A stretch of 64,000 nt of DNA from Escherichia coli (GTDB lineage: Bacteria; Pseudomonadota; Gammaproteobacteria; Enterobacterales; Enterobacteriaceae), in assembly GCF_030013595.1 (NCBI RefSeq), contig NZ_CP122768.1; one strand, given 5' to 3'. Within the stretch, counting starts at the first letter, position 1, and each line of letters begins with the position of its first letter. Made by a program: the position numbers. Positions 3,001-12,000 of the stretch are shown one piece after another.

Positions 3001-6000
3001 AACCATCAGCAAGAGGATCATTGGTTTTTCTATGTTTAATCTTTTTTATCCGAAGCCGGTCACATTTATGGCTTGATAAATACCTTTGTTAAAACTCACT
3101 TTTGTGTATTTCTCTCAAATAATCCCCTGGAAATTATGCCGGGAGATTATAAAGTTCAGGATCATTCATTAGCAAACCATTGCTGCCCCACTCCCTGGGG
3201 CTTTAAATCTCTTACGATTCACCATTGCAGGCGTTTCAAATGCGTATCAACCTGCCACACTCCCCCACACCAGTTGCCCTTTATGGAACGTCGCCGTTCT
3301 CGGCGAGATACGCGCCACCGCCTCGGCGGAACAGGAGGCGTCCACCAGCACAAAACTGGCATCATCCTGCGCTTTGGGCCACACGCGCTCGCCTTTTTCG
3401 TTGAGCGGCAATACATCGCCAGTGGCTAAAAACAGCGAGCGGGAGAGGTTCTGTTCGTTAGGACGAATATAGAGCTGCGCGTACAGATTGGCTTTTTCCA
3501 GCATGTCGCCCAGGCCGTAAGGCGACCAGTGGTCGATAACGCTGTCGGTGCCGGTCATCACTTTTACGCCTTTGTCGTGCAACTGTTTGAGCGGCATATG
3601 CAGCGTGCCAATCGGCACCGTCGAGGCGATAGAAATTTGCTGCGCCGCCATCCGGTGCGCCAGTTCATCTACCTGTTGCTCATTGAGCGTTGCCAGCGCA
3701 AAGGCGTGGCTGATGGTCAGCTTGCCCTTCAGTTGCGGCGTTTTCTCCACCGTTTCAACCATATAATTGATGGCTGCCACGCCTGCCGGAGTGGTTTCGT
3801 GCAGGTGAATATCAACGCCTTTGTCGTAGTCCAGCGCAATCTGGAACATGGTGTCGAGGGATTTTTCCATCGCGCCATCAACACTGGTCGGGTCCAGCCC
3901 GCCGACGTAATGCGCCCCCGCCTGCATCGCTTCGCGCATTAAGGGTTCTGATTTCGACAGCAGCAAACCGTGCTGCGGGAAGGCGACAATTTCACACTCG
4001 AAGCCCGCCTGACGTCGCGCCAGAACCGCCTGCAAATTTTGCAGATTTTTCAGGCCGGAAACCGGTTCGATATTGCAGTGGCTGCGGGCAATGGTAGTGC
4101 CTTTCGACTGCAATAAATCAATCAGTTTTTCCGCCCTTTCCTGAGTGTACGGTTGCAACTCCGGCAGCATTTTCTGCTCGAGTTTGATCATGTCCTGGAT
4201 GGTGGTGCCTGCCGGACGATTGAGCGAGCGCCACGGCCCGCCGTAGAAGGTTTTGTCGAGATGAATATGCATGTCGCGGGTGGTGGGCAGCATCAGCTTA
4301 CCGCCAGCGTCATAGTGCGGCAGCGTGGCGTCCGGATGCTGATTGTTCTCGCGCAGTGCAACAATTTTGCCGTTCTGAATTTCCACAGTCTGGCGCGCCG
4401 TGCGGGTCTGCACCGCCACGCCATTTTCGTAGTCAAAACCGGTTTCCAGCAACACGTTGTCGAGATAGTAGTGCGGGTCAGTGATTTTCATGGTGTTATT
4501 CGCGTCGCAGTGGGTTGTGCCAGAGACTGCCGCATGGGCGAGCGGCACAGAGGTACCAAACAGCGCGGCGGCGGTGACCATCTTACCGCTCTGGCTCAGA
4601 AACTCACGGCGGCTATTGCTTTCTTTCATCTTACGTCCTTACGTTTTAATAATATGGGTGCCCGTTTCACCGCGCAGCGCCGCAGGCAGGCATTCCGGCG
4701 TGGTGATAATCACTTCTTTACCGCCCTGCTCCAGGAACGTCAGGCTGGCGATGATTTTTGGCAACATGCTGCCGGGTGGGAAATGCCCTTCCTGCATATA
4801 GCGGGTCATGGTGGCAATATCCACCCGATCCAGCGCCTGCTGCTGCGGTTTACCAAAATGAATACACACTTTTTCCACGCCCGTGGTGATCACCAGAATG
4901 TCGGCGTGAATTTCGCGAGCCAGTAGCGCGGTAGAGAGATCTTTGTCGATAACCGCGTCCACGCTTTGGTAATCCCCCGCTTCACTGCACACCACCGGAA
5001 TTCCACCGCCGCCCGCGCCAATCACCACAAAACCTTGTTGGATCAGCGCCTTAATGGCAGGTGCTTCGACAATACGTTTCGGTTCCGGCGAGGCGACCAC
5101 GCGGCGATAGCCCCGTCCGGCATCTTCAACAAAACGCCAGTCAGGGTTTGCCTTTTGTAATTCGTCACGCTGGCTTTCACTGAAGAATGCGCCGATGGGC
5201 TTGGTGGGATGAGCAAAACCCGGATCGTTTTTATCCACTTCCACCTGAGTCACCACGGTGACGGCTTTTTTCTCACCGTGACGCGCCAGTCGGTTATTCA
5301 GCGCCTGTTGGATCAAGTAGCCAATGCCGCCTTGCGTATCCGCCACACAGTTCGCCAGCGGCGTTAAGGGCAGCCCTTCGCGCTCGTGGGCAATCTCCGC
5401 GCGGCGTAAATCCAAACCGACCTGCGGTCCGTTGCCGTGGGTCAGCACAATGTCGTAATCGGAAGCCAGCATTTCCAGCACCGTATCGGCGACGGCTTTC
5501 ACCGCCTCCGCCTGATGCTCAATCGACTGGCTGGCGTTATCTTTGATAATGCTGTTGCCACCAATGGCAACGACCACAAGTTCTTTCATGTTGTTATGTC
5601 CGCTACAGTGGGTGATGGGGTTATGACCAACGCCAGACTGCCTGATGCGCTACGCTTATCAGGCCTAGAATTCTCGTGCCATTCGTAGGCCGGATAAGGC
5701 GTTCACGCCGCATCCGGCAGAGACAACGCGCACTTTGCAGGTCAGACGCCGTAACGTTCGCACCAGCCAAGAATGGCTTTTTCGAAGCAGGCGAATGGTG
5801 GATGCACAATGCCCGCGCCAATCATGCCGATGCCCGCATCTTTATGAGCGATGGCGGTGTTGATCACTGGCAGAATGCCGCTACTGCCCACGCGGGTGAT
5901 GTCGATTGCCGACGGCACGCCCATAAAACCGAGCAGCGGAATGGTGACGTTGGGGTTTTCACCGAGAGTGATTTCACGCATCTGGCGAGAGAAATCGATA

Positions 6001-9000: not shown

Positions 9001-12000
9001 AGCGCCAGACCTGTTAAATAATCGTCGGCTGATGGCGTAAGGCCAATCCCTAAGCCCATCATACTGGCGACCGTTGAGGCGATATTTTGTTTATCGTTTA
9101 CGGCCTGAATAACTGCCCGTCGTTTACTATGTAATTCTTTATTTAACGCCTGATAAAACGGATTATCGCCGCAATAATTAAACAGGGTTTCATTTTCCCC
9201 CAGGTGCTGATGAATAATGTCATGCCACTGTTGCCAGGCGATAAGGTGAAAATTCACAGCGGCCATTTGCAAGGTTGGGGACAGCCAACGCAGGCAATGA
9301 CTCATCTCTATATGAAGATGTTGACCAACCGTAATGCCTTGATCGTCAAACTGAACCTTATCACCATGCCGGAACAGACCATCAAAGTGAGTGAGTGCCA
9401 ACCGACAACTGTTTGGCGCATTGTCGTACTCTTCACAAAGCAGCGTCAGCAACTGCTGGCGGGCCGGAAGTGCGATATTTACCGCTCTGGCAAAGACCTG
9501 TTCAACCTGTCCTTGCCCCCGCTGCGCCAGAAAATCAGCATCCGCAGTTAGCGCCCACACACACCGTCTTTCTGGTGTGTTGATAGCAAGCCTCCCGGTT
9601 TATGCACCTGCGGCAATCAGTAACTGTGCAATCTCTTCAAAGCCTCGTTCCCGCGCCAGTTCCAGCGGCGTTTTGCCATATTTATCCGTCATGTGCGGGC
9701 TGGCACCGTGTTCCAGCAATAACTGGACAATCGCCTGCTGTTTAATCCCGCCATCATTAAGCACGATTGCTTCCAGTAGCGGCGTCCAGCCAACATGGTT
9801 GGTCTGGTTAACGTTAATCTCCGTATGCGCCAAAAGCTCTTTTACAATACTTAAATGGCCTTTTTCACAGGCAGGCGTCAGGCCGACGCCGCCAAAACGG
9901 GTGACGCAATTAAGATCGGGTTTAGCCGGTAAAATAATTCGTAGTAGCGTTAAATCATCGTTCAGACAGCTAATTAAAAAAGGATTTAAACAGGTATGAT
10001 CTTGCTTATTAATATCCGCTCCGGCATCAATTAATGCCTGAACGCAAGCATATTGCTGATATAAACTTGCCAGCGTAATTGCCGTTTTCCCCTGACGATC
10101 GCAGGTATTAATATCGACACCCAGCGCAAGGCAGGTTTTTACTTTATCGATATCACCCTGTTGCGCAGCCAATAAATAGTCGGCAGGTAGATTTTTTATA
10201 GTCATTCACATTCCCCTGGTTTTTGTGGCTGTTTTCGATGAATTGAGAATAGCAACGATAATCTGATAAAAGAACCCGCTTAAATTTAATTCGCCGTATT
10301 TCGCCTTTTTGTTGAATGATGTTCAACAATCTTTTCGCAGTGTGCGGTAGTGCAATATTTGTTTCTTTGACCCGATACCCTTTCACTCAATCAGGTTTTA
10401 TTTCTCTATAGTCTGCACATGTAAGAGTAGCTTTCGTCCATGTCTAACCAGAGGGGAACAAGATGAACGGACTCACGGCAACGGGTGTCACCGTCGGTAT
10501 TTGTGCAGGGCTTTGGCAGTTAGTGTCTTCACATGTCGGGCTCTCTCAGGGATGGGAATTATTAGGAACCATTGGCTTCGTCGCCTTTTGCAGTTTTTAT
10601 GCCGCAGGCGGCGGTAAATCGGGGTTTATCAGAAGTCTGGCGGTTAATTATTCCGGGATGGTGTGGGCGTTTTTCGCCGCGCTGGCTGCCGGCTGGCTGG
10701 CCTCGGTGAGTGGATTGTCCACGTTCTGGGCGAGCGTGATTATGACTGTACCCTTCTCGGCGGTGGTGGTCTGGCAAGGACGTTTCGGTTTATTGTCTTT
10801 TATTCCCGGAGGCTTTCTCGGCATGACGCTATTTTTTGCCAGCGGGATGAACTGGACAGTGACATTACTGGGTTTTCTGGCGGGTAACTGCGTGGGGATA
10901 ATTTCAGAATATGGCGGACAAAAATTAAGCGAAGCGACGACTAAACGCGACGGGTATTAAAAGTTATTCAAAAATGATTATCTATCTTTAACCTATACCT
11001 CTACAGTCATGGCTGGAGAAATTCATATTCGATAATGGCGGGAATGGTTTAATGAACTCAATTTTTACCGAAGAGAATCTGTTGGCATTTACTACCGCTG
11101 CGCGTTTTGGCAGTTTCAGTAAAGCCGCAGAAGAGTTGGGTTTAACCACTTCCGCCATTAGCTACACCATCAAGCGAATGGAAACAGGGCTGGATGTGGT
11201 GCTGTTCACTCGCAGTACCCGAAGCATTGAGTTAACGGAGTCCGGGCGTTATTTTTTCCGCAAAGCTACCGACCTGCTGAATGATTTTCACGCCATCAAA
11301 CGCAGCATCGATACTATTTCGCAGGGTATAGAAGCACGGGTGCGCATTTGTATTAACCAACTGCTTTATACGCCCAAACACACCGCACGCTTATTACAGG
11401 TACTGAAAAAGCAGTTTCCAACCTGCCAGATTACCGTGACGACCGAAGTGTATAACGGCGTCTGGGATGCGATTATTAATAATCAGGCGAATATTGCTAT
11501 CGGCGCGCCCGACACACTGCTGGACGGCGGCGGCATTGATTACACGGAGATTGGCGCAATTCGCTGGGCTTTTGCTATCGCCCCGGATCACCCATTAGCC
11601 TTTGTGCCGGACCCCATCGCCGAAAGCCAACTGCGTCTCTATCCTAATATTATGGTGGAGGACACCGCGCATACGATTAATAAAAAAGTGGGCTGGTTGC
11701 TGCATGGGCAGGAGTCGATTCTGGTGCCAGATTTCAACACCAAATGTCAGTGCCAGATTTTAGGTGAAGGAATTGAGTTTTTGCCGGATTACATGGTCCG
11801 CGAGGCGATGGAGCAATCCCTGCTGGTTACCCGCCAAATCCATAATCCGCGCCAGGATTCACGCATGTTACTGGCGACCCAGCACTCTGCCACCGGTCAG
11901 GTGACGCAGTGGATTAAAAAACAATTTTCGCCAAATGGCATATTAACGGGGATCTATCAGGATTTACTGCATCGGGAGAATTAATCGCTGCCAACCTCCC

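What the first reader, a model, noticed from the sequence alone, without database searches (positions are those of the whole stretch)
4639..10205. yahD-yahE-yahF-yahG-yahI(-yahJ) cluster as a paralog set of the oxamate transcarbamylase / carbamate kinase module
yahF (FdrA-like), yahG (DUF1116) and yahE (DUF2877) are translationally coupled and followed by a carbamate kinase-like gene (yahI) and a Tat-exported amidohydrolase (yahJ). To my knowledge this three-gene combination plus a carbamate kinase is the signature of the allantoin-branch oxamate carbamoyltransferase (fdrA-ylbE-ylbF with ybcF). This second copy may therefore encode a carbamoyl-transfer pathway for an unknown ureido or carbamoyl compound, possibly delivered by the upstream ABC transporter. 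The ankyrin-repeat protein yahD, rare in bacteria, leads the operon and could be a scaffold or regulator.
Basis: partly seen in the sequence, partly recalled or inferred. Interest (0 to 1): 0.55.

Follow-up and report, generated by a model that had tools for sequence, protein, structure and literature searches.

The report
Second oxamate-transcarbamylase-like gene module (yah)
This is the E. coli yahDEFG-yahI-yahJ operon, a complete but uncharacterised sister copy of the recently identified oxalurate-to-carbamoyl-phosphate-to-ATP module (allFGHK); it is conserved across bacterial phyla with its own regulator, ankyrin protein and periplasmic amidohydrolase, and its substrate is still unknown.

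Summary
Window 3247-10205 (minus strand) carries yahD-yahE-yahF-yahG-yahI-yahJ of E. coli. YahF, YahG, YahE and YahI are homologous to AllF, AllG, AllH and AllK (39%, 46%, 25% and 38% identity; E 5e-101 to 6e-11). The divergent regulator YahB is a paralogue of AllS (38%).

The paralogy is already built into Pfam and NCBI names, so it is not new. The function is still unknown.

Comparison with 80 species adds four points:
- The ankyrin protein, the Tat-exported AtzC-like amidohydrolase YahJ and YahB are conserved parts of a distinct "Yah-type" clade that reaches Bacilli and Betaproteobacteria.
- Most relatives carry a 517-aa membrane transporter between yahG and yahI. Escherichia lacks it and has a REP spacer there, plus yahC elsewhere.
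- yahE is the least constrained gene and is absent from one clade.
- Sister modules sit next to cyanuric-acid hydrolase or a biuret-hydrolase-like gene.

The neighbouring ABC transporter is a strain-variable, sugar-type accessory and is not part of the system.

Most likely function: YahJ processes an external N-heterocycle or ureide in the periplasm, the product is taken up, YahDEFG cleaves an N-acylurea with phosphate to carbamoyl phosphate, and YahI makes ATP. The substrate is unresolved and could even be oxalurate.

The parts
3247..4629 (-). yahJ: Tat-exported periplasmic metallo-amidohydrolase of the AtzC/cytosine-deaminase subgroup (460 aa)
   Evidence: It passes NCBIfam subfamily NF005312 (716 bits, cut-off 447) and fails every cytosine-deaminase model. 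The closest solved structures are AtzC N-isopropylammelide isopropylaminohydrolases (E 4e-44 and 3e-30), then cytosine deaminases (1e-14 to 1e-20). The SRREFL motif is at residue 6 and the AHA-A cleavage site near residue 33. The motifs HxH (121/123), HLH (275/277), H308 and D362 are read from the sequence. The Tat motif is kept in 72 of 72 orthologues. YahJ is listed as a Tat substrate of unknown function in PMC7549933.
4639..5589 (-). yahI: carbamate-kinase family protein (316 aa)
   Evidence: 38% identical to AllK/YbcF, E 1e-57. It passes NF009007 'carbamate kinase' (646 bits, cut-off 266) but falls just below the arcC equivalog cut-off (346.7 against 358.25). It groups with the kinases of other Yah-type modules (57-93%), not with AllK (35-40%).
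5590..5741 (.). yahG-yahI spacer made of REP-type palindromes, at the position where most relatives carry a 517-aa transporter gene
   Evidence: The sequence was read (GCCGGATGCGGCGTGAACGCCTTATCCGGCCTAC and a second copy). No remnant of the transporter is detectable by tblastn. The y-ome paper PMC11551758 notes REP23 sites here in K-12 ('yahH').
5742..7160 (-). yahG: AllG-like subunit (DUF1116/PF06545, 472 aa)
   Evidence: 46% identical to YlbE/AllG, E 1e-119. About 72% identical to PDB 3clq, an uncharacterised protein whose exact sequence match lies on locus L088, read here as Enterococcus faecalis. 64-90% identical within the Yah-type clade, including Bacilli. dN/dS 0.02-0.05.
7160..8707 (-). 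yahF: AllF/FdrA-like subunit (515 aa; HMA-like N-terminus, CoA-binding and CoA-ligase domains)
   Evidence: 39% identical to FdrA, E 5e-101. It passes NF004760 'FdrA' (486 bits, cut-off 433). It matches PDB 3dmy (FdrA) and succinyl-CoA synthetase alpha chains, but the MGHAGA phosphohistidine loop of the synthetase aligns to a gap. The motifs GPDCGT, GASGTG, GGRDLS and G(K/R)PHPMIDP are shared with FdrA.
8697..9560 (-). yahE: AllH-like subunit (DUF2877/PF11392, 287 aa)
   Evidence: 25% identical to YlbF/AllH, E 6e-11. RefSeq names it 'oxamate carbamoyltransferase subunit AllH family protein'. It is the least constrained gene of the operon (dN/dS 0.18-0.28). It is missing from 21 of 71 species loci.
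9600..10205 (-). yahD: ankyrin-repeat protein (201 aa), first gene of the operon
   Evidence: Only ankyrin-repeat matches were found. An orthologous or homologous ankyrin protein sits in the same module in Aeromonas (71%), Janthinobacterium (69%) and Brevibacillus (54%). Trichococcus, Peribacillus and Jeotgalibaca carry an ankyrin+TPR version (30-34%). dN/dS 0.06-0.15.
10311..10327 (.). Palindrome GTTGAA-N5-TTCAAC, 106-122 nt upstream of the yahD start; candidate YahB operator (contains a LysR-type T-N11-A box)
   Evidence: It is unique in the window (0.01 expected by chance). The same dyad, with conserved arms and a variable centre, lies about 115-160 nt upstream of yahD in roughly half of the Enterobacterales and Aeromonas loci; in many others the nearest match lies about 290-310 nt upstream, and four loci have none. 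Binding by YahB is inferred, not shown.
10463..10960 (+). yahC: DUF1097 inner-membrane protein (165 aa), divergent from yahD
   Evidence: Annotation is. It is present only in the 16 species loci that lack the 517-aa transporter, and absent from the 55 that have it. These loci form one group of related genera, so this may be a single evolutionary event.
11052..11984 (+). yahB: LysR-type regulator, paralogue of AllS
   Evidence: 38% identical to AllS over 290 residues, E 7e-72. The best NCBIfam matches are AllS (265 bits, below the 372 cut-off) and PunR. It lies next to the operon in every Enterobacterales locus that covers that side, and in Aeromonas (84-86%) and Janthinobacterium (70%).

Best explanation
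The locus is a self-contained catabolic module that releases nitrogen and makes ATP from a carbamoyl-containing compound. It parallels allFGHK but belongs to a separate, phylum-spanning 'Yah-type' lineage.

Proposed sequence of events:
1. YahB, an AllS-like LysR activator, switches on yahDEFG-yahI-yahJ from the divergent promoter region in response to the substrate or an intermediate.
2. YahJ is exported by Tat. In the periplasm it hydrolyses or deaminates an external amino- or oxo-substituted N-heterocycle or amidine of the cytosine/ammelide kind.
3. The product is taken up. Most relatives use the 517-aa transporter encoded between yahG and yahI. Escherichia presumably uses YahC or an unlinked carrier.
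4. In the cytoplasm the YahF-YahG core, with the accessory proteins YahE and YahD, cleaves the carbamoyl-N bond of an N-acylurea with phosphate. This yields carbamoyl phosphate and an amide.
5. YahI transfers the phosphate to ADP, giving ATP, NH3 and CO2.

Shown here: gene content, homology, conservation, purifying selection, the export signal, and the association of sister modules with cyanuric-acid hydrolase and a biuret-hydrolase-like enzyme. Inferred: the chemistry of YahDEFG, the order of steps, the role of YahD, the operator, and above all the substrate.
For: - Homology of all four enzyme genes and the regulator to AllF/G/H/K/S. AllFGH is an experimentally shown oxamic transcarbamylase and AllK a catabolic carbamate kinase (PMC11326118, PMC9843812). 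AllS directly activates allF (PMC12535856).
- The motifs shared by YahF/FdrA and YahG/YlbE are intact.
- The F, G and kinase proteins fall into three co-diverging module clades: Yah, All and a plasmid type. A kinase therefore travels with the enzyme.
- The plasmid-type modules sit next to an AtzD cyanuric-acid hydrolase equivalog (580 bits, cut-off 360) plus an NCS2 permease, or next to a BiuH-like cysteine hydrolase plus a cytosine-type permease. Both enzymes make N-acylureas (carboxybiuret/biuret, allophanate).
- YahJ-type amidohydrolases accompany Yah-type modules in Enterobacterales (69 of 71 loci) and in Trichococcus, Oceanobacillus and Peribacillus (36-44% identity).
- The Tat signal is universal in the Gram-negative orthologues.
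- The transporters in the module are nucleobase/anion-type. Brevibacillus has an NCS1 allantoin-permease-like protein. For the 517-aa protein, every PDB fold match is a 7+7 inverted-repeat carrier (SLC26, BicA, SVCT1, AZG2).
- The regulators are purine-catabolism types: YahB resembles AllS/PunR, and Bacilli use PucR.
- Natural AllF-AllG fusion proteins exist. Together with the ATGA overlap, this supports one enzyme complex.
- All six genes are under purifying selection (dN/dS 0.02-0.28). yahEFG is present in 5020 of 5426 complete E. coli genomes.
Against: - No activity or substrate has been reported for any yah protein in the literature searched.
- The cluster has no ring-opening enzyme, so it is unclear how a YahJ product would become an open-chain acylurea.
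- YahJ is the last gene of the operon and could act on a product rather than a precursor.
- YahI misses the arcC equivalog cut-off.
- The succinyl-CoA-synthetase phosphohistidine is absent, so the catalytic mechanism cannot be read from that family.
- Escherichia lacks the conserved transporter.
- yahE is dispensable in one clade, although AllH was reported as required for AllFGH activity.
- The model of the 517-aa transporter is poor (pLDDT 56, TM about 0.3).
Confidence: 0.55

Rival explanations
1. YahEFG is a second oxamic transcarbamylase acting on oxalurate itself. It would serve oxalurate, or a direct precursor such as parabanic acid, that arrives from outside the cell. AllFGH would handle oxalurate made internally from allantoin. 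YahJ would generate oxalurate in the periplasm and the module's anion-type carrier would import it.
For: - The AllG-like protein solved as PDB 3clq is about 72% identical to YahG, against 46% for YahG to E. coli AllG. Its exact sequence match lies on locus L088, read here as Enterococcus faecalis.
- Trichococcus carries the same type at 86% identity to that protein. By my recollection Trichococcus is a relative of the allantoin fermenter 'Streptococcus allantoicus'.
- Oxamic transcarbamylase activity was described in Streptococcus faecalis, and was inducible by parabanic acid in a Streptococcus (cited in PMC11326118 and PMC6022934).
- Fold matches of the 517-aa carrier are mostly anion transporters, and oxalurate is an anion.
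- Very high conservation of YahG across phyla suggests one common substrate.
Against: - Lysate of an allF deletion mutant grown on allantoin did not produce the oxalurate peak given by wild-type lysate (PMC11326118). The yah genes may simply not have been induced.
- I could not check whether Enterococcus or Trichococcus also carry an All-type set.
- Keeping two full modules with separate regulators in 92% of E. coli genomes argues for different inducers at least.
- The sister modules next to AtzD and BiuH-like genes show that the family is not restricted to oxalurate.
Confidence: 0.22
2. The complex is not a catabolic carbamoyltransferase. Either YahF works as an acyl-CoA synthetase or ligase, as its RefSeq name says, or the module runs in the synthetic direction. 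In the second case YahI would make carbamoyl phosphate, which would be used to carbamoylate a metabolite.
For: YahF has CoA-binding and CoA-ligase domains and matches succinyl-CoA synthetase alpha chains. RefSeq calls it 'acyl-CoA synthetase FdrA'. The AllFGH assay itself was run in the synthetic direction (PMC11326118).
Against: - The phosphohistidine loop is missing.
- No ATP-grasp beta subunit is encoded in the cluster.
- The FdrA homologue has been shown to be part of a transcarbamylase (PMC11326118).
- The consistent company of degradative amidohydrolases, permeases and catabolic regulators points to breakdown.
Confidence: 0.08
3. In Escherichia the cluster is a cryptic remnant. With the dedicated transporter gone, the operon no longer serves a pathway and persists by inertia.
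For: - The 517-aa transporter found in 55 of 71 species loci is absent. A REP spacer takes its place.
- Within E. coli (window against strain 042) yahE shows dN/dS of about 1, based on few changes.
- The genes are still listed as uncharacterised in PMC11551758, and no phenotype was found apart from a mild competitive defect of a yahJ mutant (PMC7549933).
Against: - Purifying selection on yahF, G, I and J (0.02-0.09), on yahD and also on yahE (about 0.2) holds in comparisons among the transporter-less genera.
- All reading frames in the window are intact.
- yahEFG is present in 5020 of 5426 genomes.
- yahC co-occurs exactly with loss of the transporter, which hints at replacement.
Confidence: 0.1

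Closest known systems
AllFGH oxamic transcarbamylase with AllK carbamate kinase and the activator AllS (E. coli allantoin regulon; PMC11326118, PMC9843812, PMC12535856)
   Same: Homologous proteins one for one: YahF/AllF, YahG/AllG, YahE/AllH, YahI/AllK and YahB/AllS. The genes are tightly coupled in one operon. The predicted output is carbamoyl phosphate, then ATP plus ammonia.
   Different: - Only 25-46% identical, and a separate clade.
- Gene order is H-F-G rather than F-G-H.
- About 42 residues at the C-terminus of AllF correspond weakly to the N-terminal extension of YahG.
- The yah module has extra conserved genes: the ankyrin protein YahD, the periplasmic amidohydrolase YahJ, and a transporter or YahC.
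- It is not linked to the allantoin genes.
- No substrate or activity is known.
Uncharacterised plasmid and island modules: DUF2877-FdrA-DUF1116-carbamate kinase next to AtzD cyanuric-acid hydrolase plus an NCS2 permease (L091), or next to a BiuH-like cysteine hydrolase plus a cytosine-type permease (L092; genomic region 29 of strain BEN2908, PMC12928451; allFGHK beside biuH in nitrifiers, PMC12625717)
   Same: The same four-gene core, a LysR regulator and a nucleobase-type permease, together with one upstream hydrolase from the s-triazine/biuret enzyme repertoire. YahJ is closest to AtzC, the step before AtzD in that repertoire.
   Different: These modules have no ankyrin protein and no exported enzyme. 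Their G proteins are 46-48% identical to YahG but 79% identical to each other. Their function is also unproven.
Classical catabolic transcarbamylase plus carbamate kinase pairs (arginine deiminase pathway, putrescine transcarbamylase, YgeW-YqeA)
   Same: The same logic: phosphorolysis of a ureido compound to carbamoyl phosphate, then substrate-level ATP formation.
   Different: The transferase is unrelated in sequence. None of the yah proteins matched an ATCase/OTCase-family model. Three or four different polypeptides are used instead of one.
AtzC (N-isopropylammelide isopropylaminohydrolase) and CodA (cytosine deaminase)
   Same: YahJ shares the fold, the metal-ligand pattern and significant sequence similarity with both.
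   Different: YahJ fails the cytosine-deaminase family cut-offs. It belongs to its own subfamily (NF005312). In Gram-negative bacteria it is exported by Tat.

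Membership tests
AllFGH-type oxamate carbamoyltransferase | Three separate subunits homologous to AllF (FdrA), AllG (DUF1116) and AllH (DUF2877), encoded together | tested here: met
   BLASTP E 5e-101, 1e-119 and 6e-11. Orthologues carry the Pfam families HMA_AllF_N/CoA_binding/Ligase_CoA, AllG and AllH.
AllFGH-type oxamate carbamoyltransferase | Orthology to E. 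coli AllF/G/H (same clade), as opposed to paralogy | tested here: not met
   YahG and YahF are 64-90% and 53-83% identical to Yah-type proteins of other phyla, but only 46% and 39% identical to AllG and AllF of the same species.
AllFGH-type oxamate carbamoyltransferase | Catalyses oxalurate + phosphate <-> oxamate + carbamoyl phosphate | not testable with these tools
   This needs an enzyme assay. The only indirect data are that lysate of an allF deletion mutant gave no oxalurate peak (PMC11326118).
AllFGH-type oxamate carbamoyltransferase | Part of the allantoin (ALL) gene cluster and controlled by AllS/ArcA | tested here: not met
   The neighbours are pdeL, ehaA and the bet genes, with no allantoin genes. 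The locus has its own regulator, YahB, which scores below the AllS equivalog cut-off (265 against 372).
Catabolic carbamate kinase (ArcC/AllK) | Full-length match to carbamate-kinase models above the curated cut-off | tested here: inconclusive
   It passes subfamily NF009007 (646 bits, cut-off 266). It falls just below the equivalog TIGR00746 arcC (346.7 against 358.25) and well below the AllK-type model NF006926 (229.6 against 416).
Succinyl-CoA synthetase alpha / NDP-forming acyl-CoA synthetase (the RefSeq name of YahF) | Phosphohistidine loop (MGHAGA) and a partner ATP-grasp beta subunit | tested here: not met
   The loop aligns to a gap in YahF. No beta-subunit gene lies in the cluster. 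Succinyl-CoA-synthetase family scores are far below cut-off (71 against 336).
ATCase/OTCase-fold transcarbamylases | Sequence membership in the aspartate/ornithine carbamoyltransferase superfamily | tested here: not met
   No such family appears among the NCBIfam matches of YahD, E, F or G.
Cytosine deaminase (CodA) / AtzC | Score above the family cut-off for cytosine deaminase; identity with characterised AtzC | tested here: not met
   Cytosine-deaminase models give 70-103 bits against cut-offs of 403-483. AtzC structures match only at E 4e-44 to 1e-30, which shows homology, not orthology.
Tat-exported proteins | N-terminal S/T-R-R-x-F-L-K motif, a hydrophobic stretch and an AxA cleavage site | tested here: met
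   SRREFL at residues 6-11 and AHA at 31-33. The motif is conserved in 72 of 72 orthologues. Export itself was not tested here; YahJ is listed as a Tat substrate in PMC7549933.

The most novel reading that the evidence does not exclude
FdrA/AllG/AllH-type enzymes may be a general family of energy-conserving N-acylurea phosphorylases. Different members would take oxalurate, allophanate, biuret or carboxybiuret. The Yah-type branch would be a phylum-spanning pathway for a common but unrecognised natural N-heterocycle, for example an oxidised purine or triazine-like compound of the ammelide/cyanurate/parabanate kind. That compound would first be processed outside the cytoplasm by YahJ. In this branch an ankyrin-repeat protein would be a genuine subunit of a bacterial metabolic enzyme, partly interchangeable with the AllH-like subunit.
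Probability: 0.3. Interest if true: 0.7.

Novelty: new variant of a known kind. Interest (0 to 1): 0.48.

Why it matters
Six to eight adjacent E. coli K-12 genes of unknown function would be assigned to one pathway.

It would show that the unusual three-subunit transcarbamylase identified in 2024 is one member of a modular enzyme family. Each member is coupled to ATP formation and has its own upstream hydrolase and transporter.

It would also give a metabolic role to a bacterial ankyrin protein and to one of the few Tat substrates of E. coli that still has none.

There is a practical consequence. Homology-based calls of 'allFGH' in genomes and metagenomes cannot currently tell oxalurate enzymes from Yah-type or AtzD/BiuH-linked ones. 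One metagenome study already lists fdrA and yahF as synonyms (PMC12625717).

Tried and rejected
- **ABC transporter as part of the system:** rejected. It is strain-variable, sugar-type and not conserved with the module.
- **Remnant of the 517-aa transporter in the window:** tblastn found none.
- **Family of the 517-aa transporter by sequence:** no Pfam, NCBIfam or PDB sequence match. The AlphaFold model made from 22 close orthologues is poor (pLDDT 56.5). Only the fold class (7+7 inverted-repeat carriers) can be suggested, from weak Foldseek matches.
- **Promoter and terminator scans of 2900-11100:** no more sites than in shuffled sequence, so nothing was concluded.
- **Mechanism by analogy with succinyl-CoA synthetase phosphohistidine:** rejected, because the loop is absent.
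- **Literature searches for any yah function:** only lists, a sigma-54 microarray candidate (yahE, PMC2831329; its motif lies inside yahD, with 2 mismatches in this strain), and a mild yahJ competition defect.
- **The review by Huynh and Stewart (2023) on enterobacterial purine catabolism:** not available in the library.
- **Specific substrate guesses** (creatinine/N-methylhydantoin, 5-azacytosine, ammelide/cyanuric acid, guanine oxidation products): considered, but none is supported by more than chemical plausibility. I do not commit to one.

Full report
**What is there.** The window is E. coli chromosome. Positions 4000-12000 are 100% identical to strain HCP5S3_I2 and about 97% identical to many other strains. 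On the minus strand lie:
- yahD 9600-10205
- yahE 8697-9560
- yahF 7160-8707
- yahG 5742-7160
- yahI 4639-5589
- yahJ 3247-4629

yahC (10463-10960) and yahB (11052-11984) are divergent, on the plus strand.

The junctions were read directly. The yahF ATG lies 11 nt inside yahE, behind a GGAGGG. The yahF stop and the yahG start overlap by one base (TGATG). yahI and yahJ are 9 nt apart. The 152-nt yahG-yahI spacer consists of REP-type palindromes.

**Homology to the all module.** Against K-12 proteins (locus L003):

| yah protein | all protein | identity | E-value |
|---|---|---|---|
| YahF | FdrA/AllF | 39% | 5e-101 |
| YahG | YlbE/AllG | 46% | 1e-119 |
| YahE | YlbF/AllH | 25% | 6e-11 |
| YahI | YbcF/AllK | 38% | 1e-57 |
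| YahB | AllS | 38% | 7e-72 |

YahB's best family matches are AllS and PunR, both below their equivalog cut-offs.

AllFGH was shown in 2024 to be oxamic transcarbamylase (PMC11326118). AllK is a catabolic carbamate kinase (PMC9843812). AllS binds and activates the allF promoter (PMC12535856). None of these papers mentions the yah genes. A 2024 y-ome survey still lists yahC, E, G, H, I and J as an uncharacterised cluster (PMC11551758).

The paralogy itself is already encoded in databases. Pfam now calls DUF1116 and DUF2877 'AllG' and 'AllH'. RefSeq names YahE 'oxamate carbamoyltransferase subunit AllH family protein' and YahG 'YlbE family protein'.

**A distinct, widely conserved module type.**
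- YahG has relatives at 75-90% identity in Aeromonas, Providencia, Morganella and Janthinobacterium. Strikingly, it also has them in Brevibacillus, Paenibacillus, Psychrobacillus and Sporosarcina.
- Gene neighbourhoods show the same core, ankyrin - AllH-like - AllF-like - AllG-like - transporter - carbamate kinase, in Brevibacillus, Janthinobacterium and Aeromonas.
- Trichococcus has two YahJ-like amidohydrolases (36% identity), an ankyrin+TPR protein, the H-F-G genes and a membrane protein.
- Oceanobacillus and Peribacillus add several YahJ-like amidohydrolases (three and two respectively), and each has a carbamate kinase. Peribacillus also has an ankyrin+TPR protein.
- Jeotgalibaca has a homologue (57%) of the enterobacterial 517-aa membrane protein, an ankyrin+TPR protein, and F and G, but no AllH-like gene.
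- Pairwise identities place G, F and the kinase in three co-diverging clades: Yah-type, All-type and a plasmid type. Each is about 45-48% (G) from the others. Whole modules, kinase included, have therefore diverged together.
- In a library clustered at 50% identity, the Yah type collapses into essentially one full-length cluster among 567 AllG-family clusters (E up to 1e-30). Several clusters are AllF-AllG fusion proteins. This supports F and G forming one enzyme.

**What 80 species loci show** (analyses). Seventy-one loci span yahB to yahI.
- 55 loci carry a 517-aa protein with 11-12 predicted membrane helices between yahG and yahI, and no yahC.
- 16 loci lack it and have yahC instead. These are Escherichia, Kluyvera, Klebsiella, Raoultella, Pseudocitrobacter, Citrobacter amalonaticus and one isolate labelled Enterobacter sp. 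10-1.
- No locus has both or neither. Because the yahC group is one set of related genera, this may be a single event.
- The 517-aa protein has no Pfam, NCBIfam or PDB sequence match. A low-confidence model (pLDDT 56.5) matches only 7+7 inverted-repeat carriers such as SLC26, BicA, SVCT1 and AZG2, with E about 1e-3.
- 21 loci lack yahE altogether (Enterobacter, Leclercia, Lelliottia, Silvania, Huaxiibacter, Aeromonas cavernicola, one Serratia). In these, yahD is followed directly by yahF.
- YahJ is present in 69 of 71 loci. The two exceptions are truncated contigs. Every one of 72 YahJ orthologues keeps the twin-arginine motif.
- A palindrome GTTGAA-N5-TTCAAC, which contains a LysR-type T-N11-A box, lies 106-122 nt upstream of yahD in the window. 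It recurs at the same place, with conserved arms and a variable centre, in about half of the loci; in many others the nearest match lies about 290-310 nt upstream, and four loci have none. I read it as a candidate YahB operator.

**Is the E. coli copy alive?**
- yahEFG DNA covers at least 80% of the query in 5020 of 5426 complete genomes.
- Between species, dN/dS is 0.02-0.09 for yahF, G, I and J, 0.06-0.15 for yahD and 0.18-0.28 for yahE. This includes comparisons among the genera that lack the 517-aa carrier.
- Within E. coli (window against strain 042) yahE shows dN/dS of about 1, based on few substitutions.
- The operon is therefore maintained by selection. yahE is the least constrained part.

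**What the accessory genes say about the substrate.**
- YahJ passes its own amidohydrolase subfamily and fails the cytosine-deaminase models. Its nearest solved relatives are AtzC enzymes, then cytosine deaminases.
- The sister modules on enterobacterial plasmids sit beside an AtzD cyanuric-acid hydrolase equivalog plus an NCS2 permease (L091). Others sit beside a BiuH-like cysteine hydrolase plus a cytosine-type permease (L092).
- The L092 arrangement is also a genomic island of ExPEC strain BEN2908 (PMC12928451). It resembles the allFGHK-biuH clusters reported in nitrifiers (PMC12625717).
- AtzD and BiuH produce N-acylureas (carboxybiuret/biuret, allophanate). These resemble oxalurate in having a terminal carbamoyl group on an acyl-substituted nitrogen.
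- I therefore infer that this enzyme family cleaves such bonds with phosphate, and that each module has its own feeder hydrolase. YahJ would be the feeder of the Yah type.
- Regulators (AllS/PunR-like YahB; PucR in Bacilli) and transporters (NCS1 allantoin-permease-like in Brevibacillus) point to purine- or pyrimidine-derived compounds.
- The exact substrate cannot be named from these data.

**Mechanistic limits.** YahF aligns with succinyl-CoA synthetase alpha chains, but the phosphohistidine loop falls in a gap. No beta subunit is encoded. The RefSeq name 'acyl-CoA synthetase' is therefore not supported, and the catalytic mechanism cannot be borrowed from that family. Motifs conserved between the Yah and All proteins are intact: GPDCGT, GASGTG, GGRDLS and G(K/R)PHPMIDP in F; HAGPP, MGDE-H-RN and GDSAITET in G.

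**The main rival.** PDB 3clq is an uncharacterised protein whose exact sequence match lies on locus L088, which I read as Enterococcus faecalis. It is about 72% identical to YahG. Oxamic transcarbamylase activity was described long ago in Streptococcus faecalis and S. allantoicus, and was inducible by parabanic acid in a Streptococcus (cited in PMC11326118 and PMC6022934). If these bacteria carry only the Yah type, the Yah core may itself use oxalurate, and the E. coli module would serve exogenous oxalurate or a precursor. Against this, lysate of an allF deletion mutant lacked the activity (PMC11326118), but the yah genes may not have been induced. I could not survey whole genomes to settle the point.

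**The ABC transporter.** The segment at window 1-3240 holds the ABC ATPase gene, a rhamnose/AI-2-type binding protein and an ASCH-domain protein; the permease genes lie further on in the matching strain. It is found in 2212 of 5426 genomes. K-12 and strain 042 have yahK and yahL there instead. It does not accompany yah clusters elsewhere. It is not part of the system.

**Verdict.** The locus is a new variant of a known kind, namely the AllFGHK-type carbamoyl-phosphate-yielding module. It has additional conserved parts (ankyrin protein, exported AtzC-like amidohydrolase, own AllS-like regulator, dedicated transporter in most species) and an unknown substrate. Interest is moderate. The paralogy is already in the databases, but the comparative picture turns an eight-gene block of the E. 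coli y-ome into a directly testable pathway hypothesis.

Noticed in passing
window 13256-18643: The autotransporter gene ehaA is split into a 872-aa C-terminal ORF (13256-15874, minus) and a 499-aa N-terminal ORF (17144-18643, minus). Between them lies an insertion encoding a 402-aa IS4-family transposase (15926-17134, plus; NF033591, 404 bits). From about position 15818 the window no longer lines up position for position with strain HCP5S3_I2, whose ehaA is intact.
   Followed up: partly
window 1-3240: A strain-variable accessory segment lies downstream of yahJ. It holds a sugar-type ABC transporter (ATPase gene and binding protein in the window; binding protein closest to the RhaS and LsrB families) and an ASCH-domain protein. 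It is present in 2212 of 5426 complete E. coli genomes. K-12 and strain 042 have a hypothetical gene plus yahK and yahL here instead.
   Followed up: partly
L007:11540-13093 and orthologues (e.g. L028:11537-13087, L090:10532-12082, L096:5743-7287): A 517-aa polytopic membrane protein family with no Pfam, NCBIfam or PDB sequence match. It is always embedded in Yah-type modules, from Enterobacterales to Jeotgalibaca (57% identity). It probably has the 7+7 inverted-repeat (SLC26/NCS2/AzgA-like) fold.
   Followed up: partly
L088:11198-12379, L089:11485-12669, L094:11489-12658: A second unannotated membrane protein family (about 390 aa, 67-74% identical to each other, no Pfam or NCBIfam match). It follows the AllG-like gene in the L088 locus (read as Enterococcus faecalis), Trichococcus and Oceanobacillus, and may be the carrier of those modules.
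   Followed up: no
L037, L039, L040, L043-L057, L059-L063, L065, L066, L081 (between yahD and yahF): In Enterobacter, Leclercia, Lelliottia, Silvania, Huaxiibacter, Aeromonas cavernicola and one Serratia, the AllH-like gene yahE is missing and yahD abuts yahF. Jeotgalibaca likewise has the ankyrin protein but no AllH-like gene. Oceanobacillus and the L088 locus have AllH but no ankyrin nearby. The two accessory proteins may be partly interchangeable.
   Followed up: partly
L009 and L012 (Pseudocitrobacter) against the window: Mosaic identity: YahF, G, I and J are 95-99% identical to the E. coli proteins. YahE (55-57%), YahD (72-73%) and YahC (72-74%) are much more diverged. This implies a recombination or transfer breakpoint between yahE and yahF.
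   Followed up: no
L090 (E. coli IncF plasmid NZ_CP083889.1) and about 100 other plasmid records: A complete Yah-type module is carried on conjugative IncF plasmids of E. coli and Klebsiella, flanked by IS1 and Tn3-family elements. It has the LysR regulator, ankyrin protein, DUF2877, FdrA, DUF1116, 517-aa carrier and carbamate kinase, but no yahJ. Its G protein is 90% identical to chromosomal YahG.
   Followed up: partly
window 7002-7127 (N-terminal part of yahG) against L003:18217-18348 (C-terminal end of fdrA): The last 42 or so residues of AllF resemble the N-terminal extension that YahG-type proteins have and AllG lacks (tblastn E 0.006; Trichococcus AllG against AllF E 5e-4). The boundary between the F and G genes therefore seems to have shifted. 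In the L088 locus this piece is a separate 77-aa ORF.
   Followed up: partly
window 9758-9775 (minus strand, inside yahD): The sequence proposed in PMC2831329 as a sigma-54 promoter for yahE (TGGAAGCGATTGTGCTTA in K-12) is present with two mismatches. It is a weak match to the -24/-12 consensus and lies inside a coding region.
   Followed up: no
window 9555-9565: The yahE start lies in a GUGUGUG run (GGTGTGTGTGGG). yahE is mentioned in a study of AUGUG/GUGUG initiation sites (PMC9841429), which I did not read.
   Followed up: no
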